A DNA stretch of 45,722 bases, from positions 1-45,722 of the forward strand of contig JBFYQI010000002.1 of NCBI GenBank assembly GCA_041302875.1, read 5' to 3'. The DNA is from Ignavibacteria bacterium (GTDB lineage Bacteria > Bacteroidota > Ignavibacteria > UBA10030). This document shows positions 15,116-40,422 of this stretch, piece by piece (the first letter of the stretch is position 1; every line of letters starts with the position of its first letter). The notes beneath the pieces are model-generated. The model did not search any database. It saw only the letters and a program-made list of their open reading frames with translations, and had not been told where the DNA came from. The position numbers and the translations under genes were made by a program.

Positions 15116-18109
15116 CTATTTGATGATCGCAAACTTGCCCGTGCTCTTCTCGCCGTCCGGTGTCTCGACCACAAAAATGTACAGACCGAAAGCGACTTCC
15201 ACACCCGACTGATTCGTCAGGTTCCAATCCTCGACGCCCGAGAGATTCGTGTGCACGATGCGTTGGACAAGTTCACCGCGGACGGTGTAGATCGAGATCG
15301 TGCATTCGGGGGGCAGGAATGTGAACTGGACCTTCCGCACGTTCTGGATCTGTTCCCACGCCGCGGCACCGATATACGGATTCGGAACGACGCGGATCTT
15401 GCTCATCAACTGCGAGGCCGAGATGCCGGGCGTTGTCAGAGAATACGGAGCCGTTTGGACGTAGAACGTATCCCTCGTCGTCACCGCGCTGTACGTCTGA
15501 ATCGTGAAATACTGACCGATCGTCGGCAGTCGGGCACCGAGGGACGAGTCACTCGCGACCGTGTCAATCTTGATCGCGTAGGGGACCTTCGCGACGGTAT
15601 AGATCCCAAGGGTATCTCCGACCCCAGAGGGATTTCTGTAGGGGATATTGACGATGCGGATCGGTTCGCCGAGATTGAGCGCGCCGTTGTGATTCGCATC
15701 TTCCATCATGGCCGTCACTTGTTGCGGCACCATTCCATTGGTGACATTCCAGACCTCGAACGGCACCTTTACCTTCGCCAGCAGCGCCTGGTTGCTCGCC
15801 GCAATAGTGTCCACGTACGATCCCTGATCGGTGAATCGGAATTCATAATCGCCGCCGCGGGAATTCGTGTCGGCAGCGGTGTAGTTCGTCCGAAGCGAGA
15901 CGAACCATCGATTGACCTGGTTCTTGTTCGAGGAGCTGTTGACCGTCTTGCCAAGTTCATCCTTGATCGTCTTGATCCCGCCGATCTGCGCATCCGTTTC
16001 GATCCGGAGCCACAGGCCATCGATGACCGTCAATTCGTCCGATTTCAATGGCGCCTTCGCAAGAAGCGAATCTGCCGAGGAGTAGACCCGGAAGGTATCC
16101 GCAATGGCCTTATTGAAGGCCACCTTGTACATGTTCGTGCCGATCTTTGCCGGGTCGGCGATGGAAACCTTCACGTTCGCCTTGCCCACGGTTGCAGACT
16201 TGGTCACCGTGTAGTTCGGACGCTGGTATCCGGCCGGGTCCGTCCGCGGCGTGAGGTCGACAAAGTTCGGATCGGTCGAGGTCGTTCCCTTGGAGGATTC
16301 GTTAGACTCCAGCGAACCCTGGACGCCCATGTCGTATGACGTGATCGTGTACGAATACTGCACCCCGTTGGACACGGTCGAATCGACCCACATATGACGC
16401 AGTCCGGTGTTCGAACCGAGGAAGTTGAAGCTGTTCTGCGGGTCCGGGCCCTGAATGTCGTTGATCTTGTCAAACTGTGCGATGGGGACGTATCCGACCA
16501 AGCGACCCTGTCCATCGTACATCTCCCTCCCCCACGTCGCACCTCCATCCTGGCTCCGGTAGATCTTGTATCCTTCGAAGTCCAGTTGTTTCGTCATCAC
16601 ATCCCGGACCTTCTCTGGCGCGTCAGACCAATACAGCGTGTTCCTTCTATCGCCGGCCACACCGACCAGTTTGGGCGAAGGCGGGACGGAGGGACCGTTG
16701 TATTCCGCGAGGAAAAGTGTCTGTGCGGAGGCGACATTCCTCTTGAACTGATCAAGGGTCTGCGCCGCGGTGTACGCGATACAGGCACGCACGGATTCGC
16801 CGGGGTTCAACGTGAACAGACTGGTCGACATCAGAGCGCCGAACTGCGTGTAATCCCATCGCGACGGGACGAGGTATGTTGAATCGAAGACATCAAAATG
16901 CACGTTGCTTCCGCCATGGAAGTAATTGGAGGCGGCCGGTCGGCCAGCGATACTGAATGCCGGGTCATTGGGATTGCTGATCATCACCGGATAGATATTC
17001 CGGTTCGTCTTCTTCGGCATGTACGTCGTGTTCATGCGGAAGAAGTGCCCGTCTGTGACGCCCATATCCTTCGGCGTCCCGAGGATCACGCTGCCAAAGT
17101 AGCCGCTGTTGATGCCGCGGATCGGATCCGTCGCGCCATTCCAATCCCAGTTGGCTAACGCGTTGTCATAGCCGTTCGGATTGATCCCCGAATTGAATGT
17201 GATGTACCCCTCTTCGTTTGCGTCACCGAATCGGAAGTCGAGCAAGTATCCCCAAGTGCATGAATCCAGCACGACATTGCTCGTATTCGTGATGATGAAA
17301 TCATAGAAGTGAAGATCCTGTCCGAATCGTCTTCCCCAGCTATATGCCTGCATCTGCACCTGGACCCCCATCGGAACATCAGGCGGTTGCGCGTTGCGAT
17401 CGCTGAAGACCGTATAGACCTCCCGGTCCGCGGCGAACTCCCCGGGGATCTGCTGGCGGAATGTCGCTGAGAGCGTATCCATGTCGATGCGGAAGCGCCC
17501 CGGCCAGAATCGCCACAGATTCTTGGATTCATCGTACCATCCAGCACGTTGGGTGATGACGGCCTGATCCGCGGTTGAAAGCGAATCCCATGGACCAACA
17601 GGCCCGGATTGCCACGCATTGGATGCGTCGAAGTATCCTGCCGGCCATGTCAGGGGAATATCACTATGGGCCATGCGCGGACTTCCATCGGGTGCTTTGA
17701 TCTCCGACGGCTGGTCGTTCGCACAGTACTGCCCCACGCCCCCCGCCACACCCTGCCAGTCCTCATTGTAACGATTACTGTAGCTATCGATGACGTTTCC
17801 CTTCGAGCCGAACACGACTCCGCCTCGATTGACGGCATTGACATCACCCGTGTTGGTCGCGAGCCCCTTGCTCTTGGGCCAGCGGAAGACATACATCGCC
17901 GATCGTTGATAGCTGTCGGTGATCAGCCCCTGGTTCCCGCACACGTTGATCAGTTCCCCCTTGTCAAGAAGTCCCCAGGTATCCTCTACGCTCCGGCTCA
18001 CTTTCTTCAGCGCGGTCGTATCAGGGGACCCTTCCTCCTGAGCGCGGGCAACCGAGACGAGCGACAGGAGCATCGCCGCCAGGATCATTGTCGAACAAGT
18101 CTTGGACAT
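15116..18109 (-). CDS. large secreted protein (997 aa) with T9SS-type C-terminal sorting domain, function unknown
   Basis: Track ORF trimmed to ATG at 18109 (MSKTCSTMILAAMLLSLVSVARAQ, a signal peptide), with GGAGAG upstream. The C-terminus VVPNPYIG...ISIYTVRGELVQRIVH...GLYIFVVETPDGEKSTGKFAIIK resembles a Por secretion tail. Confidence 0.7.
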   Translation of the reverse strand: MSKTCSTMILAAMLLSLVSVARAQEEGSPDTTALKKVSRSVEDTWGLLDKGELINVCGNQGLITDSYQRSAMYVFRWPKSKGLATNTGDVNAVNRGGVVFGSKGNVIDSYSNRYNEDWQGVAGGVGQYCANDQPSEIKAPDGSPRMAHSDIPLTWPAGYFDASNAWQSGPVGPWDSLSTADQAVITQRAGWYDESKNLWRFWPGRFRIDMDTLSATFRQQIPGEFAADREVYTVFSDRNAQPPDVPMGVQVQMQAYSWGRRFGQDLHFYDFIITNTSNVVLDSCTWGYLLDFRFGDANEEGYITFNSGINPNGYDNALANWDWNGATDPIRGINSGYFGSVILGTPKDMGVTDGHFFRMNTTYMPKKTNRNIYPVMISNPNDPAFSIAGRPAASNYFHGGSNVHFDVFDSTYLVPSRWDYTQFGALMSTSLFTLNPGESVRACIAYTAAQTLDQFKRNVASAQTLFLAEYNGPSVPPSPKLVGVAGDRRNTLYWSDAPEKVRDVMTKQLDFEGYKIYRSQDGGATWGREMYDGQGRLVGYVPIAQFDKINDIQGPDPQNSFNFLGSNTGLRHMWVDSTVSNGVQYSYTITSYDMGVQGSLESNESSKGTTSTDPNFVDLTPRTDPAGYQRPNYTVTKSATVGKANVKVSIADPAKIGTNMYKVAFNKAIADTFRVYSSADSLLAKAPLKSDELTVIDGLWLRIETDAQIGGIKTIKDELGKTVNSSSNKNQVNRWFVSLRTNYTAADTNSRGGDYEFRFTDQGSYVDTIAASNQALLAKVKVPFEVWNVTNGMVPQQVTAMMEDANHNGALNLGEPIRIVNIPYRNPSGVGDTLGIYTVAKVPYAIKIDTVASDSSLGARLPTIGQYFTIQTYSAVTTRDTFYVQTAPYSLTTPGISASQLMSKIRVVPNPYIGAAAWEQIQNVRKVQFTFLPPECTISIYTVRGELVQRIVHTNLSGVEDWNLTNQSGVEVAFGLYIFVVETPDGEKSTGKFAIIK

Positions 18110-18134
18110 ACTGCTCTCCTCAGAGGTCTGATAA

Positions 18135-20831
18135 TTAGAGATCGATTCGGACACCGACTTGGATCCGTCGGCGAACGTCGACATTCGCAGGATTCCGTTG
18201 ACGGTCTGGCGTGTTCTGCGTGATCGGACCCGCATCCCAGGGATCTCCCGTCGCAGTCCAGACCAACTGCGTGTTGACGGCATCAAGGAGATTGGTGATC
18301 TTCACGAATGCGGACAGCTTCACACCGGCGACCGGGATCACGCGCTCCACGCGCATGTCGATCTGGGCGGTGCCCGCCTTGCGCCCCGAGTTCTTCTCGA
18401 CGACCAGTTGATCACCGGACTCGAACGTGTTGGGTGTGTAGGGCAAGCCGCTCGCCACCTGGACAACGAAGTTCGCGTTGAAGTACTCAAAGGGATAGAT
18501 GCCGAAGACCTCCGGCCCGAACTGTCGCGGGAACGCGATGTTCAGCAATCCTGAGAGCACATGCCGACGGTCGAAGTCAAGATAGAAGACGCGCTTCGGA
18601 CGAAGGACGGCATTCGATCCGCGATAGTCGAGATAGCCCTCCGCCGGATCCGACTCATTCCCTTTCGCGATCGAGTAGGTGTAGGTCAGGCTTCCGCTGA
18701 AGTATCCGCTCATCTTCTTGCGGAGGGCGACATCGACGCCGTTCACTTTTCCGTAGTTCGAATTGTCATAGATCGTGTAGGCGTACGGGTACACGGCGTG
18801 ATAGGTACTGCCGACGAGATTCGTGATGTCCTTGAAATACGCTCCGAGGTCGATCGAATAGTCGTCGCTGAGTTGCTGCTTCACGCCGAACTCGAACGCG
18901 ACGGTCCGTTGCGGTTCGATCCCCGGGTTGCCAACGAGCGCGGCGTTCACGGAGGGATCGCGCAGTTTGAACATCTCAAGATAATCTGCGCGCTGGAAGA
19001 AGTGGCCGTAGGAACTGTAGAAGACCGTCCGCTCGGTGATGGGGAATGCGATCCCAAGCCGCGGACTGATCTGCAAGGAGGGATCGGTCGGCAATTCGTT
19101 CGTGACGACCCACAACTTGGTCGTTTCGTCCTTGTAGCCGCCCGGATCGGTTACGGTCGGCCAGCGCGTATCCTTCACATCTACGTAGTCCAACCGGATG
19201 CCCGCATTGATGAGGAAGGAATTGAACTCCAGCTTGTCCTGGATATACGCCGCAACTTCAAAAGGATAGCGGCGGAAGGATTCATACGCCCAGAATCCTC
19301 CGGCCCACGGTTCCTGAAACGAGGTCCGCTTGATGTCATGGAACGTGATCTCCGCACCGACCTTCACAAGGTTGTACCGGTCGAGCTGCTGCATCAGATC
19401 AACCTTCGTGATGAAATAGCTGAGGTTGTTCGCAACGTAATCTCCCAGATCCCCCCCCTGGGTGAATTGATTGCCGGAGCTCTTCACATAGTTCGATTCC
19501 AGGAGGAGCCCCTCCGGGGAGAAGACCGCGTACTTGCCCGGCGTGTACAGACGGAAATCCCGGGTGTTATAAGTAAGATTGAGGGTCAGCGCCGTTTCGG
19601 TGTTTGGGAAGTAATGGACGGCGATATTGTCTCGCACAGTTTCATCCGACCGATGCGGATAGCCGTCCGGGACATATTTCCATATGTGCGAGTACAATTT
19701 ATATGCCCGCCAGAATCGGCGGTCGGCGATGCTGAATTTCCACGACCCGAATGTGTAGGAGAATCGGGCATTCGTCTCGCGCTCTTTGTTAAAGCCCCAC
19801 GGCATTTGGCTGAGCGCATTCTCGATGCGACCGGATACGAAGAACTTCAGATCAGGAACGATCGGCATCGGACCACTCAGGTTCATCGACAGCTGTCCGA
19901 GAAAATCGATGTCGGGGAACAGGTCCCGCGTCTCATCCATGGATTGCGGCTCGTAGGCCGATGGAATATCGAGGATGACGTTCCCTTTGTCGTCGATCCG
20001 CGGCCTGCGGACGCCATTGGCATCGATGCCCATATAGTCATTCGCGAGGGCATCGGCCATGTGGTACGGCGATTCATTCAGCTGGGCGGACTCGAACTCC
20101 ACCCGGCCGTTGTAGCTTGCGCCGCCTTCTTTTGTCACGATGTTCACGACGCCGGAAAGCGCTTGGCCGTACTCCGCGCTGAATCCACCGGTGAGCACCT
20201 GGAGTTCCTGGATCGCATATTTGTCCAATTGCGACCCCATGGTGCCGCTCAGCGGATCGCGCATCGGAACCCCGTCGATCATGTACACCACTTCGCCGCT
20301 CCGGCCTCCGCGCGCGTGCAACTCTCCGCTTGCGTCGGTCACGAAGCCGGCCTGCAGTCCGACGACCTGTTGAAAGCTCACGACCGGAAGGTTGGAGAAT
20401 GTCTCAGCCGAAACGATGGACATCTTCGACGTTTCATCCTTGTTGATCATCGGGCGTTCCGCCGTGACAACCACTTCCTGCCCGAGCGCCACCGTCGACT
20501 CGGTCATGTCGAGTTGGACGTTCGTGGTCAGGTCCGCCCGCACGATCACCTCGGTCACGAGCTGCGTCGCGTATCCCAGCAGTGTCGCGCGCACGCGGTA
20601 TGTTCCCGGAGGGACATTGATAATGACGATGCGACCTTCGACATCGGTCGCTCCCCCGATCGACGTCCCCTCGAGCATAACGTTCACCATCGCGAGCGGT
20701 TCGCCGGTCTTCTTGTCGACGGCTTTCCCGACGATCTTGCCGGTCGTTCCGCCGAACGCTGCCGTGACGATCAGCAACGCCAGTGCCGCGACGATCCAGC
20801 GAGAGAAGAGAATGCGAAGTGGGTGTCTCAT
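18135..20831 (-). CDS. TonB-dependent receptor with N-terminal carboxypeptidase-regulatory-like domain
   Basis: Trimmed to ATG at 20831 (MRHPLRILFSRWIVAALALLIVTAAFG). CarboxypepD_reg-like region: GKIVGKAVDKKTGEPLAMVNVMLEGTSIGGATDVEGRIVIINVPPGTYRVRATLLGY. Plug-like region: ...LPVVSFQQVVGLQAGFV...HARGGRSGEVVYMIDGVPMRD. A long barrel follows. Confidence 0.85.
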   Translation of the reverse strand: MRHPLRILFSRWIVAALALLIVTAAFGGTTGKIVGKAVDKKTGEPLAMVNVMLEGTSIGGATDVEGRIVIINVPPGTYRVRATLLGYATQLVTEVIVRADLTTNVQLDMTESTVALGQEVVVTAERPMINKDETSKMSIVSAETFSNLPVVSFQQVVGLQAGFVTDASGELHARGGRSGEVVYMIDGVPMRDPLSGTMGSQLDKYAIQELQVLTGGFSAEYGQALSGVVNIVTKEGGASYNGRVEFESAQLNESPYHMADALANDYMGIDANGVRRPRIDDKGNVILDIPSAYEPQSMDETRDLFPDIDFLGQLSMNLSGPMPIVPDLKFFVSGRIENALSQMPWGFNKERETNARFSYTFGSWKFSIADRRFWRAYKLYSHIWKYVPDGYPHRSDETVRDNIAVHYFPNTETALTLNLTYNTRDFRLYTPGKYAVFSPEGLLLESNYVKSSGNQFTQGGDLGDYVANNLSYFITKVDLMQQLDRYNLVKVGAEITFHDIKRTSFQEPWAGGFWAYESFRRYPFEVAAYIQDKLEFNSFLINAGIRLDYVDVKDTRWPTVTDPGGYKDETTKLWVVTNELPTDPSLQISPRLGIAFPITERTVFYSSYGHFFQRADYLEMFKLRDPSVNAALVGNPGIEPQRTVAFEFGVKQQLSDDYSIDLGAYFKDITNLVGSTYHAVYPYAYTIYDNSNYGKVNGVDVALRKKMSGYFSGSLTYTYSIAKGNESDPAEGYLDYRGSNAVLRPKRVFYLDFDRRHVLSGLLNIAFPRQFGPEVFGIYPFEYFNANFVVQVASGLPYTPNTFESGDQLVVEKNSGRKAGTAQIDMRVERVIPVAGVKLSAFVKITNLLDAVNTQLVWTATGDPWDAGPITQNTPDRQRNPANVDVRRRIQVGVRIDL

Positions 20832-23359: not shown

Positions 23360-25057
23360 CTAGAGACGCTGGGTTAATGTGAGATAAGCGGTCCGTTCCG
23401 TAAAGTGCCCGTAGAGCATCGACGGCGATGAGTACCGGGTCCACAACACCGCGGCATTCACAGAAAAACTCTGAGTCACCGACCAGGTCGACGACAGCCG
23501 GAATCGAAGCGAGTTCGCCTGCTGATTGTCGAACGACCACATGACGGAGGCGCGTGATGTCAATGCGTTCGCCAACGTCCGGTGCTGCGCCGTCAACATC
23601 GTGGACCAGTTCGTGGTCTTGCGGTCGATGGAAGCGCTCATGTTGACCGACGGGAGCAACAGGATGTCTTCGGTTGCTGCGATGGTCCCACCGACTCCGA
23701 CCGCGTGGTTGACCGCGCGAACATCCGGTCTCACAGGGAGGTCATACAGCGAACCCGAATAGGTGTAGTCGAAATTCACGGATCGGAGCGTCGACTGCCG
23801 GCTGAAGGAGTACTGCTGGCTCGTCCCGATCACTACCGTGGAAAACCCGTACCGCGCGGAATCGCCGGGGGCGTTGTTGTCCATCGACGAGTAGACGACG
23901 CGGAACGACGTCCCCCATTCACCGACCGGCCGCAGGGTGACCATCGCCGTGGCGGTCTGCCGCACCGTCGTGTTCCTCTTCTGTCCCAACAGATTGTCGT
24001 TCTGACGGGTCCAGCTGACCATGATCGTCCCTGTGGGGATGCGGACCATCGGGGAGATGAGGAATTCCTGCTGATCGTTCGTCAGCCAGCCCACACCGAG
24101 CGATGTATATCCCGGCGCAATGTACTTGTACCCGGTTCGCAGACTCACCGGCGAGAAGCTGAGCATCATGTCGCTGGCGACCATGAAGTCTGCGTTCGAG
24201 CTGAGGCGCGGCTTGAAGATCCCCCGCACGAATTCCGGCACGCTCCCCGTGGTGTCCTCCTCAAGCCGCATGTCGCGCGTGTAGAGGCTTCCGTTCGCCT
24301 CGACATTCCATGTGACGGCACGGTCGAACAGGACCGTCCGCGTTCGGATGCCGGCAACAAGGTTCTCCTGCGGCGTCGTCGCATACGGATTCTGGTATGT
24401 CATATCGAGGGAATCGTTCTCGAACGCGGACACGGAAGGATTCGGATCAGCGAGTGAGGCAGGATCATCGCGCACGCGAAGTACCTGCACATCAAAGAAT
24501 GACGCATATTCGTCCCCGACGCCGATGCTTGCTCCCATCACATACCGTTTGTAGGAGCCGCTTTCCGACCCGCCGTATACGGCCCGGCGTGCTTGTCCTC
24601 CCAACAGACTGAACCGAAGAAGTCCCGGATTGATGATCACGCCGCCGCCGCGCAACGGGATCCCGCTGAGTGTGTACGGAGAGATCTCATCGCTGAAATC
24701 GCCGATATGCGCCCGTCCCCATCGCCACGAGGGATGGAGGCCGATCTGATTGATGTCCTGGCGCGCAGAGTTCCCTTCGGTCGACAAGAGGAGATCCGCG
24801 CTGAGTGTGACCGCATCGAAGACCGTGAGCGTGGGACGAAAGAACAACCTCGCCGTCGACGGATCACGCCGCCGGGGGGCTCCGGTGATCCCGTTCACCT
24901 CTCCATACGCCGTCAATTCGCCCGAGAATCTGAATGCCTCATCAAGAAATCCCGATGCACGACCGCTGGAGTCGGGTGCTTGGGCGATCGCCCGTTCGTG
25001 TGCCCACGCGAGCAAGAAGATGCACGTGCAGACGAGGAATCGTCCGTTGGTAGTCAT
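23360..25057 (-). CDS. outer-membrane beta-barrel protein (565 aa), family unknown
   Basis: Signal peptide MTTNGRFLVCTCIFLLAWAHERAIAQ. The whole protein has an alternating beta-strand pattern rich in Y/R/S/T. Confidence 0.55.
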   Translation of the reverse strand: MTTNGRFLVCTCIFLLAWAHERAIAQAPDSSGRASGFLDEAFRFSGELTAYGEVNGITGAPRRRDPSTARLFFRPTLTVFDAVTLSADLLLSTEGNSARQDINQIGLHPSWRWGRAHIGDFSDEISPYTLSGIPLRGGGVIINPGLLRFSLLGGQARRAVYGGSESGSYKRYVMGASIGVGDEYASFFDVQVLRVRDDPASLADPNPSVSAFENDSLDMTYQNPYATTPQENLVAGIRTRTVLFDRAVTWNVEANGSLYTRDMRLEEDTTGSVPEFVRGIFKPRLSSNADFMVASDMMLSFSPVSLRTGYKYIAPGYTSLGVGWLTNDQQEFLISPMVRIPTGTIMVSWTRQNDNLLGQKRNTTVRQTATAMVTLRPVGEWGTSFRVVYSSMDNNAPGDSARYGFSTVVIGTSQQYSFSRQSTLRSVNFDYTYSGSLYDLPVRPDVRAVNHAVGVGGTIAATEDILLLPSVNMSASIDRKTTNWSTMLTAQHRTLANALTSRASVMWSFDNQQANSLRFRLSSTWSVTQSFSVNAAVLWTRYSSPSMLYGHFTERTAYLTLTQRL

Positions 25058-34641: not shown

Positions 34642-34749
34642 CCGGGGGTGATTCCGGGGACTTATCCGGGGACTTATCCGGGGTTTTATCCGGGGACTTA
34701 TCCGGGGACTTATCCGGGGCTTTATCCGGGGTTTTATCCGGGAACAATC
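34642..34749 (+). repeat. 12-nt tandem repeat array 2 (9 units, same unit and orientation as array 1)
   Basis: Units: ccgggggtgatt / ccggggacttat x2 / ccggggttttat / ccggggacttat x2 / ccggggctttat / ccggggttttat / ccgggaacaatc. The terminal unit (ccgggaacaatc) resembles the terminal unit of array 1 (ccgggacaatca). Confidence 0.9.
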
Positions 34750-34779
34750 CAGCGATCCTGGTAGCTCCTTCTGTCCACT

Positions 34780-36084
34780 CTACGCCACCACCGCGGATTC
34801 TTCCTCGATCTCTCGCGTCAGGGCCATGGCGGCGATGGTGCCGTCCGAAACCGCCGTGGTGATCTGCCGATATTGCTTGCTTGCCACATCCCCCACTGCG
34901 AACACGTTCTTGATGCTCGTGTGGAACTGTCGGTCCGTAACGATGTATCCCCAGCTGTCCAGTTGGAACTTGTCCTTGAACTCCTCAAGGTTCGGCTTCA
35001 TGCCGGCAAAGACGAACACGCCGTCGCAGTCGATCGTCACAAGCTCCCTCGTCTTCAGATTCTCCGCGATCACTTTCCGCACGCCCTGTCCTTCCTTCAC
35101 GAACTCGCGCGGTTCGTGCTCGAACATGAACGAGATCTTCGGGTTCGCGAACGCCTTCTCCTGCGCCGTCTTGTTCGCCTGCAGCTTGTCGAATTGATGC
35201 ACGATGGTGACGCGCTCGGCAAACTTCGTGATGAACAACGATTCCTCGATGGCCGAATTCCCGCCCCCGATCACGACGACGTGCTTTCCTTCGTAGTACT
35301 TGGCATCGCACGTCGCGCAGTACGAAACGCCCTGTCCCTTGTATTCGCGTTCCCCTTTCACTCCGATGACGCGCGGGGATGAACCGGTCGCCAAAATGAT
35401 CTTCTTCGCCTTGATCGTTTCGACTCCGTCGATCACCACCTCTCCTGCTGCGCAGTTTGTTCGCGTCACATCGACTGCCACCCGGAATTCTGCTCCTGCC
35501 GCCTTCGTCTGCTCGGACATGTGATGCATCAACATATAACCTGAGATGGGCTCTGAGAATCCGGGGTAGTTGCTGACGAGATGTGTCGTTTTCACTTGTC
35601 CGCCCGGGAGATCACGGTCGACCACGATGGTCTTTAACTTCGCCTGGGCGGTGTAGATCGCGGCGGCCAATCCAGCAGGACCGCCGCCGAGGACCAGGAC
35701 ATCGCATTCGGTCTGCGTTTGGGGGATGGAATCTCGCAACTGTGTCGCACGGTTCGGCGACAACATCGTTTCGAGATTCTCGACGATCTCGGCCCGCTTG
35801 ATGCCACCGCTTAACCGCTTCCCCGTTTCCTTGCCGTCTTTGAAGAAGATGAGCGTCGGCGAGGAAGATACTCCCAGTTTCTGAGCCAGCTCCTTGTTCC
35901 CCTGGCGAAAGATCTTCACGAATTTCACATCCTCGCCGTAGATCTCGCTCAACGGCTCGAACTTCGCCGCGAGCGCTTCGCACGGCGGGCACTCCGTGGA
36001 ATAAAAATCGAGGACGACCGACCCGTTCGTGTGCACAACGGATTCATATTCTGTCGCATTGACCTCTTGTATGTGTGTATGCAT
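34780..36084 (-). CDS. thioredoxin domain fused to a thioredoxin-disulfide reductase-like flavoprotein
   Basis: N-terminal Trx fold with the redox motif ECPPC (DFYSTECPPCEALAAKF). FAD motif VLVLGGGPAGLAAAIYTA. TrxR redox centre CATCDA. Second dinucleotide motif VVVIGGGNSAIEE. The start is ATG at 36084 (or GTG at 36087), 6 nt after the rSAM stop. Confidence 0.85.
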   Translation of the reverse strand: MHTHIQEVNATEYESVVHTNGSVVLDFYSTECPPCEALAAKFEPLSEIYGEDVKFVKIFRQGNKELAQKLGVSSSPTLIFFKDGKETGKRLSGGIKRAEIVENLETMLSPNRATQLRDSIPQTQTECDVLVLGGGPAGLAAAIYTAQAKLKTIVVDRDLPGGQVKTTHLVSNYPGFSEPISGYMLMHHMSEQTKAAGAEFRVAVDVTRTNCAAGEVVIDGVETIKAKKIILATGSSPRVIGVKGEREYKGQGVSYCATCDAKYYEGKHVVVIGGGNSAIEESLFITKFAERVTIVHQFDKLQANKTAQEKAFANPKISFMFEHEPREFVKEGQGVRKVIAENLKTRELVTIDCDGVFVFAGMKPNLEEFKDKFQLDSWGYIVTDRQFHTSIKNVFAVGDVASKQYRQITTAVSDGTIAAMALTREIEEESAVVA

Positions 36085-36090
36085 CACTTG

Positions 36091-37404
36091 CTACAACTCC
36101 TCTTTGAAATACGTTGAAATACCCATGGATACCAGTTCGTTGATCGGGCGGCAGTCGGTGCCATGAAGGTCGCCCATGGTGTTGAATGCAACCGAGGCAC
36201 ACCCTCCACCGCACGCGAGCCGGAGATTGCACTCCGCGCACCCGGAGATCGTTGTGACGTCCCGTTCCTCCCATCGTGCGATGAGTTCTTCGTTCTTCTG
36301 CACCGTCGGGTAGAACGTGCCCAATGATTCTGCCGCCTTACCCACGGTTGCCGTGCAGGAATAGATGCGTCCCGTGTAGTCGAATGCCCATTCGGTCTTC
36401 GTTCCGGGACAGGAGTCATACAAGGGACTCGGCAGCTCGCCGTTCTCGAAAAGGAACTTAGCGATCGAAAACGCGGGCTTGTGGAACTGGAGGATCTCCG
36501 GATGCTGCTGGACGAGACCATAGATCTCCTGAAACATCTCGACGCGGGAAAGGAGTTTGCTCCGGTCGGTCTGACATGTATGCAGTTCGTAGTTGCGTCC
36601 CAGCTGGGTCTTGAATTTCGGGTGTGACGTCCACCCGCGCTGGATCGCGAACGCGGCAAGCGCCGGCAATTCGCTGATGTTCTCACGGTCGATCACCACG
36701 CGCAGGTTGATCGCGATGTCGAGCGCGAGCGCTTGGTCGATGCCGTGCACGATCCGGTCGAATGTCACGCCGCCCCCCTTCAAGGGCCGACGAAGGTCAT
36801 GGACACGTGCAAGCCCGTCGAGGGTGACCTGGATCTCGCGGATCCGGTGACGCGACAACATTTCCACATAGTCCGAAAGCAGATAGCCGTTCGTCACGAT
36901 CGCCGTTTCAAGACCCGCATGGTGTGCCTTTTCGAGGAAGTACTGCACGACATCCCGATATGCCGGTCCGTCGAGCAGCGGTTCACCGCCGAACAAGGTC
37001 AGGTACTTCCGACGACCCGCGAACGTCTCATGGACGTACCGAAAGAAGCGGTCAACGAGTTCCCGCGTTGGGAGTTGATGCTCGTTGGAATATCCCTCCT
37101 GATAGCAGTAGCTGCAACCGAAGTTGCACGCATACCAGGGGACAAAGAAGACCTGGATCTCGTCGCTGTCGCGCTCGTCGAGGAAGTCCAGATACCGCTG
37201 ACGAAACAGCCGTTCGTCCTGTTCGGGATCGACGAGATACCCCTTCGCAGTATACTCATCGACATCCGTGTACTGCTCTTCACGGATCTCCCGGGCCTTC
37301 TCTGCGGTCAGGATATCCGCATTGCCTCGAAGCAGGTTCAGCAGGATGAACTTGTCCGAACCGGCGATCGGCGTGAGGATGTTATGCTTGGAGAACGTCA
37401 TCAT
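36091..37404 (-). CDS. radical SAM / SPASM-domain peptide-maturase-like enzyme (437 aa)
   Basis: Trimmed to ATGATG at 37404. CX3CX2C is at residues 93-100 (YACNFGCSYC), after a ~85-aa N-terminal extension (FILLNLLRGNADILTAEKAREI...) of the kind that forms a peptide-recognition domain in RiPP maturases. There is a complete SPASM signature: CPGTKTEWAFDYTGRIYSC (CX12GX4C) and CAECNLRLACGGGC (CX2CX5CX3C). Confidence 0.85.
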   Translation of the reverse strand: MMTFSKHNILTPIAGSDKFILLNLLRGNADILTAEKAREIREEQYTDVDEYTAKGYLVDPEQDERLFRQRYLDFLDERDSDEIQVFFVPWYACNFGCSYCYQEGYSNEHQLPTRELVDRFFRYVHETFAGRRKYLTLFGGEPLLDGPAYRDVVQYFLEKAHHAGLETAIVTNGYLLSDYVEMLSRHRIREIQVTLDGLARVHDLRRPLKGGGVTFDRIVHGIDQALALDIAINLRVVIDRENISELPALAAFAIQRGWTSHPKFKTQLGRNYELHTCQTDRSKLLSRVEMFQEIYGLVQQHPEILQFHKPAFSIAKFLFENGELPSPLYDSCPGTKTEWAFDYTGRIYSCTATVGKAAESLGTFYPTVQKNEELIARWEERDVTTISGCAECNLRLACGGGCASVAFNTMGDLHGTDCRPINELVSMGISTYFKEEL

Positions 37405-37442
37405 CTGGAAGAGAGCAAGTCCCGCACAATTCGGGGTTGGGA

Positions 37443-37538
37443 TTAGTCGTGGCAGCCTGCGACGTTCTTCGACGTCTTGGCGCAGCACTGGGCCACGGCG
37501 GTTTCGGTTTTCGTGTGCTTCTTGATGAGAGACTTCAT
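37443..37538 (-). CDS. unannotated 31-aa Cys-containing small ORF, candidate precursor peptide (MKSLIKKHTKTETAVAQCCAKTSKNVAGCHD)
   Basis: Too short for the ORF track; found by hand translation of the 164-nt gap between the methyltransferase and rSAM genes. It has the strongest SD in the window (AAAGGAGGT, 5-nt spacer, ATG). It has a Lys-rich N-terminal half and a C-terminal half with three Cys. The stop is 38 nt before the rSAM start. Confidence 0.6.
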   Translation of the reverse strand: MKSLIKKHTKTETAVAQCCAKTSKNVAGCHD

Positions 37539-37568
37539 GAATACCTCCTTTCTCACTGCACGGCTCCG

Positions 37569-38240
37569 TCAGGACCCGCAAGTGCACGAAGACTTTGTTG
37601 CTGATACGGTGAAGCTGACAACAGCGATCTTCCCCTTTTCGTACGGCCTGCTCTCTTCCATGATGGTGATATTCTTGAATCCCGCTTCGGTGAGGATCGT
37701 CAGATACTCTCCTTTCGTGATCGCTCCCGCCCAGCACTCGGCGACGGCGACCGGATCATTCGCGTACTCTTCTGGAACCGGTTCGAGCGAATAGATGTCG
37801 CTCACGACAAACCGTCCTCCCTTCCTGAGAATGCGAAAGATCTGTCTCCAGACCGCGCGTTTGTTCTTGGCATGATTGATCGTGCAATTCGAGATAACCA
37901 AGTTCGCCACGCTGTCGGCGATATTGATCTGTTCCAGTTCCGATTGGACAATCGAGACGTTGGTGTAGCCAAACTTCTCGACCTGCTTCTTCGCCTTGGC
38001 GATCATTCCGTCTGCGATATCCACGCCATAGACGTAGCCGTTCTCGCCCACTGCCTCCCGCAAACGTATCACGTCCGTGCCTTTGCCGCAGCCGAGGTCC
38101 ACACAAACCTCGCCGTTCTGAGGCTGGCTTAGGTCCAGCGCTCCGCCACATGAAAGACAGCATTCCTGTTCGGCAAGCTGGCTGTAGCGTTTCTCGATCT
38201 CTATAATATTATTGCTCATAGCATTCCGGAGTGATTCCAT
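37569..38240 (-). CDS. class I SAM-dependent methyltransferase, ArsM (arsenite methyltransferase)-like
   Basis: Start taken at ATG 38240 (MESLRNAM); the track start at 38252 is GTG. SAM motif VCVDLGCGKGTDV. The Cys pattern is ArsM-like: N-terminal CC (AEQECCLSCGGAL), ISNCTINH and VAECWAGAI. Its C-terminus is also Cys-rich (SSCTCGS). Confidence 0.7.
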   Translation of the reverse strand: MESLRNAMSNNIIEIEKRYSQLAEQECCLSCGGALDLSQPQNGEVCVDLGCGKGTDVIRLREAVGENGYVYGVDIADGMIAKAKKQVEKFGYTNVSIVQSELEQINIADSVANLVISNCTINHAKNKRAVWRQIFRILRKGGRFVVSDIYSLEPVPEEYANDPVAVAECWAGAITKGEYLTILTEAGFKNITIMEESRPYEKGKIAVVSFTVSATKSSCTCGS

Positions 38241-38286
38241 TGTGTGATGCACAAAATATGGGAAAGATTCGTGTCATTTTGGCACG

Positions 38287-38314
38287 ACTCCCGGCTTCTT
38301 AAGCTGCCGGGAGT
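38287..38314. repeat. hairpin repeat copy A (ACTCCCGGC-ttcttaagct-GCCGGGAGT)
   Basis: 9-bp perfect GC-rich stem with a 10-nt loop. It lies between the ATP-grasp stop (38336) and the methyltransferase start (38240). It is near-identical to the copies at 42666 and 40719. Confidence 0.8.
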
Positions 38315-38335
38315 GTTGTGGAGGTGATGGCATCA

Positions 38336-39436
38336 TCATTTGGCCGAATCCGGGAGTCTAACACCCCCGGAGTTGGCCAAAGCCGCAGGTTTTCTCGCCA
38401 GCGCATACTCCACGATCATCCGGAGCGTGGCAGAAAACGACAAACCCGCCTTTTCGGCAGAATCCATGAAAGAAACTCCTTCCGTTAGGTCAGGATTAGG
38501 ATTCACCTCGAGAATGTGGACCTGCCCGCAGGGCGAGACGCGAACGTCCAGACGGGCATAGTCCCGGCAACCAGTCAGTTCGTATGCCCGAAGGCAGGCC
38601 GCTTCCACCTTCTTCTGAAGACGCTTTGAGAGAGTCGCAGGACAGTGGGAGTGAACCTTGTGGTAGTTCTCGCTGAGGGGATTCCACTTCACATCGTAGC
38701 TAATGATGCGGGGTTCCTCTGGAGGAAGCTCTGAAAAGTCGTATTCAACAATCGGCAACACCCGCGGGGATTGATTGCCTAGTATCCCCACATGTAACTC
38801 CCGGCCCTCGATGTATTCCTCCACCAAGACAGGGGACCCGAATTCCTTGAACGCGTGCTCGATACGTGCCATCAACTCCTCTAGCCCGTTGACGACCGCA
38901 TCTCGGTCCACTCCCCAACTCGCATCTTCGCGACCCGGTTTCACGATCATTGGGTAATGGAGGCCGTGCCGCCGGGGAAGAATCGGAGCCGTCAACAGCC
39001 GAAATCGCGGCGTCGGAATCCCATTGGCAAGTAGGATCTGTTTGGTGAGACCTTTCCGCTGACAGAGGGCAAGCGCAAAAGGAGTTGCCCCGGTATAGGG
39101 GATGCTCATTAGGTCAAATACTCCCGCGACCATCATCTCGAGCTTCGAATCCCCGCGGAAATGCTCGACGAGATTGAAAACGACGTCTGGCTTCTCCATC
39201 TCCAGCAGACGGAGCAACCGGGTAATATCATCCTCGAGGTTTCCCAATATCGCCTCGAATCCCTCCGATTCCAGCCCCTTCGCGAGCGCCTGATATTCGT
39301 CCAAGGCGGTCGCCACGTGGATGGGATAGGTCGGAGTGAAATCAAGGTCGTCTGGACTCACAGCCCGCATTTTCTCATACTCGTCCTCTCCTGTATGGTT
39401 GAAGAGGATGAGGACTTTGGTGGGTCGGTCGGTCAT
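38336..39436 (-). CDS. D-alanine--D-alanine ligase-like ATP-grasp enzyme (366 aa)
   Basis: Trimmed to ATG at 39436 (MTDRPTKVLILFNHTGEDEYE). Ddl-like organisation: N-terminal Rossmann-like region, then ...ALCQRKGLTKQILLANGIPTPRF...YPMIVKPGREDASWGV...VLVEEYIEGRELHVGILG...ARLDVRVSPCGQVHILEVNPNPDL. Confidence 0.8.
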   Translation of the reverse strand: MTDRPTKVLILFNHTGEDEYEKMRAVSPDDLDFTPTYPIHVATALDEYQALAKGLESEGFEAILGNLEDDITRLLRLLEMEKPDVVFNLVEHFRGDSKLEMMVAGVFDLMSIPYTGATPFALALCQRKGLTKQILLANGIPTPRFRLLTAPILPRRHGLHYPMIVKPGREDASWGVDRDAVVNGLEELMARIEHAFKEFGSPVLVEEYIEGRELHVGILGNQSPRVLPIVEYDFSELPPEEPRIISYDVKWNPLSENYHKVHSHCPATLSKRLQKKVEAACLRAYELTGCRDYARLDVRVSPCGQVHILEVNPNPDLTEGVSFMDSAEKAGLSFSATLRMIVEYALARKPAALANSGGVRLPDSAK

Positions 39437-39555
39437 GGGAGGATGCTCGTTCTGTGTCAGAAATATGTCTATTTGCCGGCACAGTGGCAAGTTCTGATTG
39501 CTATTGGACCGAAGATTGGGTAGGTTATCCGTCCAAGAAATCACATCCCACTTCG

Positions 39556-40422
39556 ATGTCATTCTATCCTCAACCCGGCGAGTGGCAGTGCGGACCCTTC
39601 GCACTCAAGCACGCACTCATCATGCACGGACTCCTTGTTGCCGAAAAGGACATTGCGCGCATCGCAGGCACGCATTGGTGGAACGGCACGAACGAGATCC
39701 AGCTCGGGAAAGCGGCACGCGCATTCAACTGCGACTTTCTGATGATCCGCAAGTATGACTCCGAACACGCACGCAAGGAGTTGAACGGATTTCTGCGGGA
39801 TCGGATCCCGACGCTCCTTTGCGTCGACGAGTGGGAGCACTGGCTCGTTGTGGTGAAGCAGGAGAAAGGGAAGTACATCCTGCTCGACAGCGAAGACCCT
39901 GCAGTGCTCACGATCGTCACGTGGCCGCAACTTCGGAATCGCTGGGCGTATCATCGGCAGGATGAATATGACAAGGACACGATCCATACGGTCTACGACC
40001 TCCATCCAGTCGTTCCGCGATTCCGAGTGAAGACCCAAGCGAACGTCTCGATCGATCGCGCGCGCTATCTCCGGCGCAAGTCAAATCGGGCACTTGCACA
40101 TTCGTGGGATGAGTATCTCGAAGACCTTCTCGCCATCTGCAAAGCACGTACGCCCCTCTCGGAAAACGTTTTTTCGCTCGGAGAGTTCTTCCGTCGCCAC
40201 GAGGAGATGATCCTGGATCAAATCGACTATTGGCACGGAAAGCTCAACCGAAGAGAAGCGTCGGTCATCCTCCGCAATATGCATCTCGTTGCCGACACCT
40301 ACGGACTCGTGATCCACCAGGAAGATGAGAAACGCGCGATCGCGGGCATCGCAACGCTGCTGACCATCTGGGCAGCAGGGAAATACGGTGCGTCCTCGAT
40401 CTATGACGGCGAACGGAAGTAG
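39556..40422 (+). CDS. stand-alone papain-fold cysteine peptidase (C39-like) with C-terminal helical domain
   Basis: Trimmed to ATG at 39556 (MSFYPQPGEWQCGPFALKHALIMHG). Candidate catalytic Cys in QCGPFAL, His in DEWEHWLVVV and Asp in ILLDSEDP. Order and spacing match C39 bacteriocin-processing domains. There is no fused ABC transporter. Confidence 0.55.
   Translation: MSFYPQPGEWQCGPFALKHALIMHGLLVAEKDIARIAGTHWWNGTNEIQLGKAARAFNCDFLMIRKYDSEHARKELNGFLRDRIPTLLCVDEWEHWLVVVKQEKGKYILLDSEDPAVLTIVTWPQLRNRWAYHRQDEYDKDTIHTVYDLHPVVPRFRVKTQANVSIDRARYLRRKSNRALAHSWDEYLEDLLAICKARTPLSENVFSLGEFFRRHEEMILDQIDYWHGKLNRREASVILRNMHLVADTYGLVIHQEDEKRAIAGIATLLTIWAAGKYGASSIYDGERK

What the first reader, a model, noticed from the sequence alone, without database searches (positions are those of the whole stretch)
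37443..37538. Unannotated short ORF between methyltransferase and rSAM genes
The six-frame track misses it (31 aa). Support comes from several points. AAAGGAGGT lies 5 nt before the ATG. The ORF occupies the middle of a 164-nt gap flanked by the two genes on the same strand. The composition is bipartite: a Lys/Thr-rich leader-like half (MKSLIKKHTKTETAVAQ) and a core-like half with three Cys (CCAKTSKNVAGCHD). A weak CCCG/CGGG hairpin follows the stop. No canonical double-glycine cleavage motif is visible (only AG before the last Cys), so the processing route is unclear.
Basis: seen in the sequence. Interest (0 to 1): 0.75.

Follow-up and report, generated by a model that had tools for sequence, protein, structure and literature searches.

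The report
Conserved three-cysteine peptide beside radical SAM maturase
The 31-codon ORF is a real, strongly conserved and so far unnamed small-peptide gene, most likely the substrate of the radical SAM enzyme next to it, in a four-gene module that also holds an arsenite-methyltransferase-like enzyme and a thioredoxin/thioredoxin-reductase fusion.

Summary
On the minus strand, 37538->37443 encodes MKSLIKKHTKTETAVAQCCAKTSKNVAGCHD. AAAGGAGGT ends 4 nt before the ATG, and the ORF sits in a 164-nt gap between an ArsM-like methyltransferase and a radical SAM/SPASM gene.

The ORF alone is not unusual. Comparative evidence settles it:
- All 18 related loci found through the radical SAM protein, plus two found through the peptide, carry the ORF in the same place.
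- Third codon positions vary in 16 of 16 core codons, while A-Q-C-C-A-K-x-S-x4-G-C-H-D-stop stays fixed (pN/pS 0.165).
- A profile search found 28 more peptide clusters of 31-58 aa. They share the core at the C-terminus, an MKSLxK N-terminus and a spacer of variable length.

Methyltransferase, peptide, radical SAM enzyme and Trx-TrxR fusion always occur together, although the gene order differs between lineages.

The radical SAM protein has the CX3CX2C motif and eight conserved C-terminal cysteines. It also has a predicted RRE-like N-terminal domain, and its best structural match is the thioether-forming maturase CteB.

Best reading: a RiPP-type precursor, probably cross-linked through cysteine and kept inside the cell, since no protease or exporter is conserved. 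The link to arsenic or thiol-redox chemistry is unproven. No Pfam or NCBIfam model and no paper found describes it.

The parts
37443..37538 (-). Small peptide gene (31 aa plus stop): MKSLIKKHTKTETAVAQCCAKTSKNVAGCHD. Residues 1-7 carry the conserved N-terminal motif, 8-15 are the variable spacer, and 16-31 are the invariant core AQCCAKxSxxxxGCHD.
   Evidence: Sequence and translation. An ortholog is present in 18 of 18 loci found through the radical SAM protein. Core pN/pS is 0.165, with third positions variable in 16 of 16 codons. 28 further representative clusters share the same C-terminal core.
37543..37551 (-). Shine-Dalgarno sequence AAAGGAGGT, 4 nt upstream of the ATG.
   Evidence: Read directly. 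A GGAG-type site sits at similar spacing before the MKSL start in the related loci.
37421..37435 (-). Weak 4-bp hairpin (CCCG, 7-nt loop, CGGG) in the 38-nt spacer between the peptide stop and the radical SAM start.
   Evidence: RNAfold gives -5.8 kcal/mol for the spacer. Most low-GC relatives have a long G+C-rich stem followed by a T-run at the same place, with spacers folding at -17 to -48 kcal/mol. The window, L009 and L018 have only weak structure. The terminator scan finds nothing here in the window.
37569..38252 (-). ArsM-like SAM-dependent methyltransferase, with CCLSCGG, SNCTINH and AECWAGA motifs and a C-terminal CxC tail. The true start is probably an internal ATG at about 38219-38240, because homologs are 207-220 aa.
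   Evidence: NCBIfam NF008823 arsenite methyltransferase scores 184.7 bits, below the cut-off of 263. It aligns to CmArsM 4KW7 with the Cys72, Cys174 and Cys224 equivalents retained. These cysteines are conserved across the family. The gene lies next to the peptide gene wherever the upstream DNA is held.
36091..37404 (-). Radical SAM/SPASM peptide-maturase-type enzyme (437 aa). It has an N-terminal RRE-like domain, CX3CX2C at C93/C97/C100, and eight invariant C-terminal cysteines.
   Evidence: It gives full-length but sub-threshold matches to CefB, TIGR04463, geopeptide, PapB and SCIFF maturases. Pfam matches Radical_SAM and Fer4_12. Invariant cysteines are listed. The AF2 model has pLDDT 84 with a beta3-alpha3 N-terminus. 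Foldseek's top match is CteB 5WGG at TM 0.67.
34780..36087 (-). Thioredoxin (CPPC) fused to thioredoxin reductase (CATC). It starts 3 nt after the radical SAM stop.
   Evidence: TIGR01292 scores 321 bits over residues 129-425, and Pfam Thioredoxin matches residues 7-106. It is 63-69% identical in all loci, placed either after the radical SAM gene or before the methyltransferase.

Best explanation
The ORF is a genuine gene for a ribosomally made substrate peptide (a RiPP-type precursor) of the radical SAM/SPASM enzyme immediately downstream. It belongs to a conserved four-gene module: ArsM-like methyltransferase, peptide, radical SAM/SPASM enzyme and Trx-TrxR fusion.

Proposed mechanism, with shown and inferred steps marked:
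1. The peptide is translated from a strong Shine-Dalgarno site. In low-GC relatives a stem-loop with a T-run after its stop probably raises the ratio of peptide message to enzyme message. The sequence features are shown; expression is inferred.
2. The RRE-like N-terminal domain of the radical SAM enzyme binds the conserved MKSL[IV]xK end of the peptide. The variable spacer lets the invariant C-terminal block AQCCAKxSxxxxGCHD reach the active site. This is inferred from the predicted fold and from CteB and SuiB.
3. The enzyme abstracts a hydrogen atom from a core residue, and a cysteine sulfur captures the radical to give one or more thioether cross-links. This is sacti- or ranthipeptide-type chemistry; Cys29 to Asp31 is one candidate. 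It is inferred from the nearest characterised relatives CteB, PapB and QhpD, all of which act on Cys-rich peptides.
4. The ArsM-like enzyme methylates either a remaining thiol of the peptide or a metalloid held by the peptide's thiols. The NADPH-driven Trx-TrxR fusion keeps the cysteines of the peptide and the methyltransferase reduced. This is inferred from what is known of ArsM, which uses Trx/TrxR/NADPH.
5. No leader peptidase or exporter is conserved, and the core is invariant across phyla. The product therefore most likely works inside the cell in thiol or metalloid (arsenic) stress handling. It would be a cofactor-like or carrier-like peptide rather than a secreted antibiotic. This is inferred.
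For: Real gene:
- The ORF is intact in 18 of 18 loci found through the radical SAM protein, always between the methyltransferase and the radical SAM gene.
- Core pN/pS is 0.165. All 16 third positions vary, against 7 and 6 of the first and second positions. The invariant Ser switches between TCN and AGT codons.
- A profile search of 1.84 billion representative proteins gives 28 clusters, 31-58 aa long. All end in the same core and most start MK[SP][LI].
- The gene has been called in a few assemblies, always as 'hypothetical protein', for example MBB6478724.1 in Spirochaeta isovalerica.

Substrate of the radical SAM enzyme:
- The two genes are always adjacent and co-oriented. In Myxococcota-type loci the peptide stop overlaps the radical SAM start.
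- The enzyme aligns over its full length with peptide maturases: CefB at 1.4e-47, TIGR04463, geopeptide, PapB and SCIFF.
- It has CX3CX2C and the motif CX2CX5CX3C plus four more invariant cysteines.
- The predicted N-terminus has three strands and three helices.
- The best structural matches are CteB (TM 0.67), SuiB and anSME, and the best sequence match in the PDB is CteB.

Module:
- All four genes are retained in the window, the 18 related loci held as DNA (two of them are copies of others; L003, L006 and L014 stop before one flanking gene) and the two gene tables. TrxR lies on either side of the other three.
- The methyltransferase keeps the CmArsM Cys72, Cys174 and Cys224 equivalents.
- In L012 the module is the downstream end of a co-directional array of ArsR, an ArsC-like gene and Acr3 (461 bits, above cut-off).
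- Thiol-redox neighbours recur: AhpC/TSA redoxins, extra thioredoxins, an SQR-like flavoprotein and a YgaP-like TM protein.
Against: - There is no direct evidence of translation or modification.
- The radical SAM protein is far below every NCBIfam cut-off (162 bits against 600 for CefB). Pfam's SPASM model is not matched at E<=0.01. The chemistry therefore cannot be transferred from any characterised family.
- Eight conserved C-terminal cysteines could fully ligate both auxiliary clusters, as in anSME. That differs from the open site of CteB, which binds the substrate cysteine.
- The arsenic link rests on methyltransferase homology, which is below the family cut-off, and on one neighbourhood out of about 16. 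The window itself has no ars genes near the module.
- Absence of a protease or exporter is negative evidence only. Such genes may lie elsewhere in the genome.
Confidence: 0.75

Rival explanations
1. The peptide is the precursor of a peptide-derived redox cofactor, as PqqA is for PQQ and MftA for mycofactocin. The radical SAM enzyme would modify the invariant C-terminal GCHD or QCC residues. The product would be excised and used by a partner oxidoreductase, with Trx-TrxR acting as its recycling system.
For: The core is invariant across phyla and sits at the extreme C-terminus. That pattern is typical of cofactor precursors and unlike antimicrobial RiPPs. No exporter is conserved, and a dedicated NADPH-dependent reductase is always present. 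The maturase is of the SPASM type, as are PqqE and MftC.
Against: No peptidase and no cofactor-dependent dehydrogenase is conserved in the module. The mycofactocin and PQQ maturase models score much lower than the Cys-peptide maturase models. The ArsM-like methyltransferase has no counterpart in known cofactor pathways.
Confidence: 0.12
2. The peptide is an unmodified small metal(loid)-binding protein, a miniature ArsD-like chaperone. Its CC...C triad would bind As(III) and hand it to the ArsM-like methyltransferase. The radical SAM enzyme would have a different substrate.
For: Three invariant cysteines include a vicinal pair, and His and Asp are also invariant. This recalls the Cys12-Cys13-Cys18 site of ArsD, which I cite from my own knowledge. 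The methyltransferase keeps the As(III)-ligand cysteines and carries its own CxC tail. One locus is embedded in an ars operon.
Against: The peptide gene is always directly upstream of, and sometimes overlapping, a maturase-type radical SAM gene with an RRE-like domain. The three-part layout of conserved N-terminal motif, variable spacer and invariant end is what leader-guided modification predicts. Simple metal binding does not require it.
Confidence: 0.1
3. The ORF is a regulatory leader peptide (uORF). Its translation would control a downstream terminator and so the expression of the radical SAM gene, as in transcription attenuation. The peptide product itself would have no function.
For: In most low-GC relatives a strong stem-loop with a T-run follows the ORF directly. 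The ORF is short and has a strong Shine-Dalgarno site.
Against: Attenuator leaders conserve a few regulatory codons, not sixteen consecutive residues across phyla with saturated synonymous change. The hairpin is essentially absent in the window, L009 and L018, yet the peptide is unchanged there. No alternative antiterminator pairing was apparent, and there is no Rfam match.
Confidence: 0.02
4. It is a chance open frame in an intergenic spacer.
For: By my own estimate, a 31-codon open frame at 58% GC has a probability of roughly 0.33 per frame. The gene callers of most assemblies skip it.
Against: It is conserved in every related locus with frame-specific substitution patterns, and there are 28 independent database clusters.
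Confidence: 0.01

Closest known systems
SCIFF peptide with its maturase CteB/ScfB (six-cysteines-in-forty-five; thioether-forming radical SAM/SPASM)
   Same: Both have a short Cys-containing peptide encoded directly upstream of a radical SAM/SPASM maturase of about 440 aa with an N-terminal RRE. In both, the core is highly conserved across taxa, no dedicated protease or exporter is present, and the physiological role is unknown and probably intracellular. CteB is the best sequence and structure match in the PDB.
   Different: This peptide has three cysteines, not six, and an unrelated sequence; NCBIfam gives no match to it. The maturase scores 85.6 bits against the SCIFF cut-off of 425. SCIFF clusters do not carry an ArsM-like methyltransferase or a Trx-TrxR fusion.
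Ranthipeptides and PapB (Cys to Asp beta-carbon thioethers), and QhpD
   Same: Both are radical SAM/SPASM enzymes acting on Cys plus an acidic residue. The core here ends in an invariant C-H-D. The PapB model matches at 4e-30.
   Different: The score of 105 bits is below the cut-off of 340. PapB substrates carry repeated CX3D motifs and are exported after leader removal. Here there is a single CxD at the C-terminus and no transporter.
CefB (Cys-every-fifth) and TIGR04463 radical SAM/SPASM RiPP maturases, families defined by bioinformatics
   Same: These are the closest NCBIfam models. Alignment is full-length (residues 2-437 against 1-435 of 444), which implies the same domain architecture and Cys-rich peptide partners.
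   Different: The scores are 162 and 129 bits, against cut-offs of 600 and 525. The partner peptide has a different motif. To my knowledge the chemistry of those families is also not established.
ArsM / AS3MT arsenite S-adenosylmethionine methyltransferase
   Same: The SAM-binding fold is shared, and three cysteines align with CmArsM Cys72, Cys174 and Cys224. Dependence on a thioredoxin system would fit the co-conserved Trx-TrxR.
   Different: This enzyme is shorter (about 215 aa) and lacks the C-terminal domain of ArsM. It is below the NF008823 cut-off. It is always paired with a peptide and a radical SAM enzyme, which canonical arsM genes are not.
Arsenic-linked radical SAM pathways: ArsL with ArsM (arsinothricin) and ArsS with ArsM (arsenosugars)
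   Same: They share the pairing of a radical SAM enzyme with an ArsM-type methyltransferase.
   Different: To my knowledge ArsL and ArsS are not SPASM peptide maturases and have no peptide substrate. The arsinothricin and arsenosugar ArsM models score only 95 and 66 bits here.

Membership tests
Radical SAM/SPASM-dependent RiPP precursor (generic class) | Short ORF adjacent to and co-oriented with the maturase gene, conserved with it | tested here: met
   All 18 loci found through the radical SAM protein and both loci found through the peptide have it. The peptide stop and radical SAM start overlap in the Myxococcota-type loci.
Radical SAM/SPASM-dependent RiPP precursor (generic class) | Maturase with CX3CX2C and a SPASM cysteine set for auxiliary Fe-S clusters | tested here: met
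   Invariant cysteines are C93/C97/C100 and C277, C332, C350, C389, C392, C398, C402 and C418, which include CX2CX5CX3C. Pfam's SPASM model itself was not matched.
Radical SAM/SPASM-dependent RiPP precursor (generic class) | RiPP recognition element (PqqD-like beta3-alpha3) in the maturase or a partner | tested here: inconclusive
   The AF2 model has three strands and three helices in residues 8-80 at pLDDT of about 90, and the whole chain matches the RRE-containing CteB and SuiB. There is no PqqD Pfam match, and binding was not tested.
Radical SAM/SPASM-dependent RiPP precursor (generic class) | Leader and core organisation of the peptide | tested here: met
   The family shows a conserved N-terminal MKSL[IV]xK motif, a spacer of 14 to about 40 residues, and an invariant 16-residue C-terminal block.
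Radical SAM/SPASM-dependent RiPP precursor (generic class) | Leader peptidase and/or exporter in the cluster | tested here: not met
   None is conserved in any neighbourhood. The weak C39-like ORF of the window (19.4 bits, below the cut-off of 22) is on the opposite strand and absent from the other loci.
Radical SAM/SPASM-dependent RiPP precursor (generic class) | Post-translational modification of the peptide by the enzyme | not testable with these tools
   This needs anaerobic co-expression or an in-vitro assay with mass spectrometry.
SCIFF (TIGR03973 peptide with TIGR03974 maturase) | Six-cysteine peptide of about 45 aa matching the family model, and a maturase above the family cut-off | tested here: not met
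   The peptide has three cysteines and no NCBIfam match. The maturase scores 85.6 bits against a cut-off of 425.
PapB-type ranthipeptide | Maturase above the NF047865 cut-off, and repeated CX3D/E motifs in the core | tested here: not met
   The maturase scores 105.1 bits against a cut-off of 340. The core has a single C-H-D.
Arsenite methyltransferase ArsM (NF008823) | Score above the curated cut-off | tested here: not met
   184.7 bits against a cut-off of 263.
Arsenite methyltransferase ArsM (NF008823) | Conserved As(III)-binding cysteines (CmArsM Cys72, Cys174, Cys224) | tested here: met
   The alignment to 4KW7 places SCGG, SNCTIN and AECWAGA on those positions. They are conserved in the family.
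Arsenite methyltransferase ArsM (NF008823) | Arsenite methylation activity, or a consistent ars-operon context | tested here: inconclusive
   An ars context (ArsR, an ArsC-like gene, Acr3) occurs in one locus only, L012. Activity cannot be tested here.
Mycofactocin or PQQ type peptide-derived cofactor | Maturase and peptide matching the MftC/MftA or PqqE/PqqA models, with a partner peptidase and dehydrogenases | tested here: not met
   The MftC model scores 65 bits against a cut-off of 265. No peptidase or dehydrogenase is conserved.

The most novel reading that the evidence does not exclude
The module carries out metalloid chemistry on a peptide scaffold. The invariant CC...C triad of the matured peptide would hold As(III), or a related soft metalloid. 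The ArsM-like enzyme would methylate it there, or the SPASM radical SAM enzyme would forge a carbon-arsenic or carbon-sulfur link next to it. Either route would give the first ribosomal peptide dedicated to arsenic transformation or carriage, with a private NADPH/Trx-TrxR reducing system.
Probability: 0.12. Interest if true: 0.9.

Novelty: new variant of a known kind. Interest (0 to 1): 0.6.

Why it matters
The finding adds a widespread and so far unnamed peptide family to the radical-SAM-modified peptides. It occurs in Ignavibacteriota, Bacteroidota-type, Myxococcota and Spirochaetota genomes.

Two features are unusual:
- The 16-residue core is invariant across phyla. That points to a conserved cellular job rather than an antibiotic arms race.
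- The peptide is tied obligatorily to an arsenite-methyltransferase-like enzyme and a dedicated thioredoxin/thioredoxin-reductase fusion.

It also shows a systematic annotation gap. Gene callers skipped the gene in most of the assemblies examined.

A cultured carrier, Spirochaeta isovalerica, and a four-gene module small enough for heterologous expression make the function directly testable. That includes the question of whether ribosomal peptides take part in arsenic or thiol-stress chemistry.

Tried and rejected
I used the 53-aa ortholog from L009 instead, and then a profile search.
- Pfam and NCBIfam scans of the peptide gave nothing. The only hit was a meaningless sub-threshold 'BTK motif'.
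- The metagenome scan with the single radical SAM protein returned only 3 loci, one of which was the window's own contig.
- Eight literature searches combined ArsM or arsenic, radical SAM or SPASM, and RiPP, precursor peptide, thioredoxin reductase or Ignavibacteria. None found a paper describing this module.
- The Rfam search of 34000-39000 gave no match. The promoter and terminator scan found no more than the shuffled controls.
- I tested whether ars genes are a regular neighbour. tblastn with the L012 ars proteins against all loci found them only in L012. In L022 the glyoxalase-fold protein beside the module does not match an ArsI model, and the MFS transporter is Tet-like.
- I rejected the C39-like ORF at 39454-40422 as a leader peptidase. 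It is sub-threshold, on the opposite strand and not conserved.
- I rejected the ATP-grasp (Ddl-like) gene upstream as part of the module, because it is absent from all other loci.
- The 527-aa 'member' of one peptide cluster (P0156) looked like a possible fusion. It is an unrelated sigma-54 activator, so this is a clustering artefact.

Full report
**Observation**

The feature lies on the minus strand. ATG 37538-37536 opens a 31-codon frame that ends at TAA 37445-37443 and reads MKSLIKKHTKTETAVAQCCAKTSKNVAGCHD. AAAGGAGGT (37551-37543) ends 4 nt before the ATG.

The upstream gene stops at TGA 37571-37569 and the downstream gene starts at ATG 37404.

The CCCG/CGGG hairpin after the stop is real but weak. 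It has 4 bp, the 38-nt spacer folds at -5.8 kcal/mol, and no T-run follows.

A 31-codon open frame at 58% GC is not remarkable in itself. My own estimate is a probability of about one in three per frame. The case therefore rests on comparison with related sequences.

**Neighbours in the window**

- Upstream gene (38252-37569). This is an ArsM-like class I methyltransferase. NCBIfam NF008823 'arsenite methyltransferase' scores 184.7 bits, below its cut-off of 263. Pfam matches Methyltransf_31. Its best solved relatives are the arsenic methyltransferases 4KW7 and 4FR0. The alignment places its SCGG, SNCTIN and AECWAGA cysteines on CmArsM Cys72, Cys174 and Cys224.
- Downstream gene (37404-36091). 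This is a 437-aa radical SAM protein. It aligns end to end with Cys-rich-peptide maturases: CefB at 1.4e-47, then TIGR04463, geopeptide, PapB, Clo7bot and SCIFF. It reaches none of their cut-offs.
- Next gene (36087-34780). This is a thioredoxin (CPPC) fused to a thioredoxin reductase (CATC).
- Rest of the window. It carries T9SS-tail proteins, a TonB-dependent receptor and large ORFs with no Pfam match. There are no ars genes.

- The genome scan with the radical SAM protein gave 9 loci at 57-62% identity. They come from Ignavibacteriota, Melioribacteraceae and 'Bacteroidetes' MAGs and one Myxococcales MAG.
- The metagenome scan added 3 loci, one being the window's own contig.
- Contig look-ups of database homologs added 7 more, including the cultured Spirochaeta isovalerica.
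- In all 18 loci that include the upstream DNA, an intact small ORF lies between the methyltransferase and the radical SAM gene. A GGAG-type site sits 5-9 nt before an MKSL start. An example is MKSLISKKKSNVKIAQCCAKVSAIATGCHD.
- The Myxococcales version has a longer leader and the same end: ...APQAQCCAKTSKVTMGCHD.
- Across the 17 distinct sequences of the 16 core codons, the variable columns number 7, 6 and 16 of 16 at codon positions 1, 2 and 3. pS is 0.75, pN is 0.12 and the ratio is 0.165. The invariant serine is TCN in most loci and AGT in L011.
- No locus has a frameshift or a stop in the ORF. The refutation test therefore fails, and the gene is real.

**Extent of the family**

A profile of the window peptide plus four Myxococcota-type homologs was searched against 1.84 billion representative proteins. 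It returned 28 clusters at E<=1e-3.

These peptides are 31-58 aa long and end in AQCCAK[TVIAQ]SxxxxGCHD. Most begin MK[SP][LI].

Pooled with the loci, there are 54 distinct peptides and 35 distinct cores. The positions A, Q, C, C, A, K, S, G, C and H are invariant, and the terminal residue is D in 34 of 35 cores (N once). Only one leader contains GG.

One caveat applies. The profile hits were selected for this motif. The unbiased set is the loci found through the radical SAM protein, and it shows the same invariance.

Where sources name the peptide at all, it is 'hypothetical' or 'uncharacterized' protein (MBB6478724.1, UniRef100_A0A841R184, MDX9721558.1). The window's own peptide is not in the 15-billion-protein collection. 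In most assemblies examined the gene was not called.

**The module**

tblastn of the window's proteins against the loci shows that methyltransferase, peptide, radical SAM enzyme and Trx-TrxR are retained wherever the contig reaches far enough; in L003, L006 and L014 it stops before one flanking gene. Nothing else from the window is retained.

- In the window, L009-L012, L016, L018, L021 and L022, Trx-TrxR follows the radical SAM gene.
- In L001-L007, L017 and L019 it precedes the methyltransferase.

Retention through this rearrangement argues for a functional unit.

Other neighbours recur but are not universal:
- AhpC/TSA-type redoxins, extra thioredoxins and an SQR-like flavoprotein;
- DUF1847, YgaP-like TM and DUF6132 proteins;
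- a second small methyltransferase;
- MarR, Rrf2 or LysR regulators;
- AdoHcy hydrolase, once.

In L012 the module is the downstream part of a 10-kb co-directional array. The array runs ArsR/SmtB, an ArsC-like gene, Acr3 (461 bits, above cut-off), a SaoE/ArsP-like permease, thioredoxins and DsbD. This ars context was not found in any other locus.

**The radical SAM enzyme**

- In a 30-sequence alignment the invariant cysteines are C93/C97/C100 (CX3CX2C) plus C277, C332, C350, C389, C392, C398, C402 and C418. They include the SPASM signature CX2CX5CX3C. Pfam's SPASM model itself did not match.
- The AlphaFold2 model (pLDDT 84, pTM 0.84) starts with three strands and three helices in residues 8-80, the layout of a RiPP recognition element.
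- Foldseek against the PDB ranks the SCIFF thioether synthase CteB first (5WGG, TM 0.67). SuiB, anSME and ChlB follow. CteB is also the best sequence match.

**Hairpin**

In most low-GC relatives the spacer after the peptide stop carries a long G+C-rich stem followed by a T-run, for example GGAAAATCCGGC-loop-GCCGGATTTTTTTATT. The window, L009 and L018, all high-GC, have only weak structure.

This fits a leaky terminator that enriches the peptide message, an arrangement common in RiPP operons (my own knowledge). It is not needed to conserve the peptide.

**Interpretation**

The best-supported reading is a RiPP-type substrate peptide of the adjacent radical SAM/SPASM enzyme.

The peptide layout matches leader-guided modification: a conserved N-terminal motif, a spacer of free length and an invariant C-terminal block. 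The nearest characterised relatives (CteB, PapB, QhpD) all make Cys thioethers. I therefore commit to one or more Cys-derived cross-links within AQCCAKxSxxxxGCHD as the most likely chemistry. That step is inference.

The core is invariant across phyla and no protease or exporter is conserved. A dedicated NADPH-dependent disulfide reductase is always present. Together these point to an intracellular role connected with thiol or metalloid chemistry.

The methyltransferase keeps the three As(III)-ligand cysteines of ArsM and has its own CxC tail. One locus sits inside an ars operon. An arsenic connection is therefore a serious but unproven possibility.

**Rivals**

- A peptide-derived cofactor is a variant of the main reading, differing in what happens after modification.
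- An unmodified As(III)-binding mini-chaperone explains the cysteines. It does not explain the obligatory maturase or the leader layout.
- A regulatory uORF does not fit sixteen consecutive invariant residues across phyla under saturated synonymous change.
- Chance is excluded.

**Novelty**

- No Pfam or NCBIfam (release 20) model matches the peptide.
- The radical SAM protein and the methyltransferase fall below every curated cut-off.
- No source gives a functional name.
- Eight full-text searches found no description.

The kind of system, a Cys-containing peptide with a SPASM maturase, is known. The core motif and the fixed partnership with an ArsM-like enzyme and a Trx-TrxR fusion are new. 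I therefore rate it a new variant of a known kind, of moderate to high interest and readily testable.

Noticed in passing
L012:541-10861 (ENA ERZ21878173 contig_3): The four-gene module is the tail of a co-directional array. The array runs ArsR/SmtB, a truncated ArsC-like gene, an F420-oxidoreductase-like gene, Thioredoxin_3, Acr3 (461 bits), a SaoE/ArsP-like permease, Thioredoxin_3, thioredoxin, DsbD_TM and an AhpC-like gene. A YgaP-like TM protein follows the module. This is the only locus with ars genes.
   Followed up: partly
L001-L008, L010-L012, L014-L017, L019: spacer between peptide stop and radical SAM start: A strong G+C-rich stem-loop followed by a T-run (terminator or attenuator-like) sits directly after the peptide gene in low-GC relatives. 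It is reduced to a 4-bp hairpin in the window and is absent in L009 and L018.
   Followed up: partly
L009:6001-7286: The radical SAM gene of the Myxococcales MAG matches the query in two tblastn segments in different frames. This suggests a frameshift or assembly error near 6375-6432. Close relatives (contigs carrying P0003) have an intact 448-aa gene.
   Followed up: partly
L001:3934-4485, L002:7314-7874, L003:4636-5184, L007:7328-7870, L008:1088-1630, L019:9343-9888: In the Ignavibacteria-type arrangement, where TrxR lies upstream, a second small Methyltransf_11 gene of about 185 aa follows the radical SAM gene directly. The window has none.
   Followed up: no
window 34665-34730 (+): Two near-identical copies of a hairpin unit (TCCGGGG-loop-TCCGGG GTTTTATCCG) lie in tandem. 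They sit in the spacer between the Trx-TrxR gene and the 176-aa lipoprotein-like ORF at 34047-34577.
   Followed up: no
window 39454-40422 (+): A 322-aa ORF gives a weak, sub-threshold Peptidase_C39 match (19.4 bits, cut-off 22). It is on the opposite strand and overlaps the over-extended 5' end of the ATP-grasp ORF. No counterpart exists in any related locus.
   Followed up: partly
window 38336-39604 (-): A D-Ala-D-Ala-ligase-like ATP-grasp gene lies directly upstream of the methyltransferase and has a long N-terminal extension in the listed ORF. It is not conserved with the module.
   Followed up: partly
window 27238-32160 (-), 15116-18286 (-), 23360-25057 (-): Very large ORFs of 1640, 1056 and 565 aa have no Pfam match at E<=1e-4. 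They lie next to fn3, T9SS-tail and TonB-dependent receptor genes, which suggests a cell-surface locus in an FCB-group organism.
   Followed up: no
L011 (GCA_050259615.1, labelled Syntrophomonadaceae): The contig carries Por_Secre_tail (T9SS) proteins, and its module is 62% identical to Ignavibacteria-type ones. The taxonomic label of this MAG contig may be a binning error.
   Followed up: no
P0156 (cluster of P0128): A 527-aa sigma-54 activator (GAF, AAA and HTH domains) is listed as a member of the 90% cluster of a 53-aa peptide. This looks like a database clustering artefact, not a fusion.
   Followed up: yes
L021:11166-12575: An S-adenosylhomocysteine hydrolase gene directly follows the Trx-TrxR gene of the module in one locus. 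That fits heavy SAM turnover by the two SAM-using enzymes.
   Followed up: no
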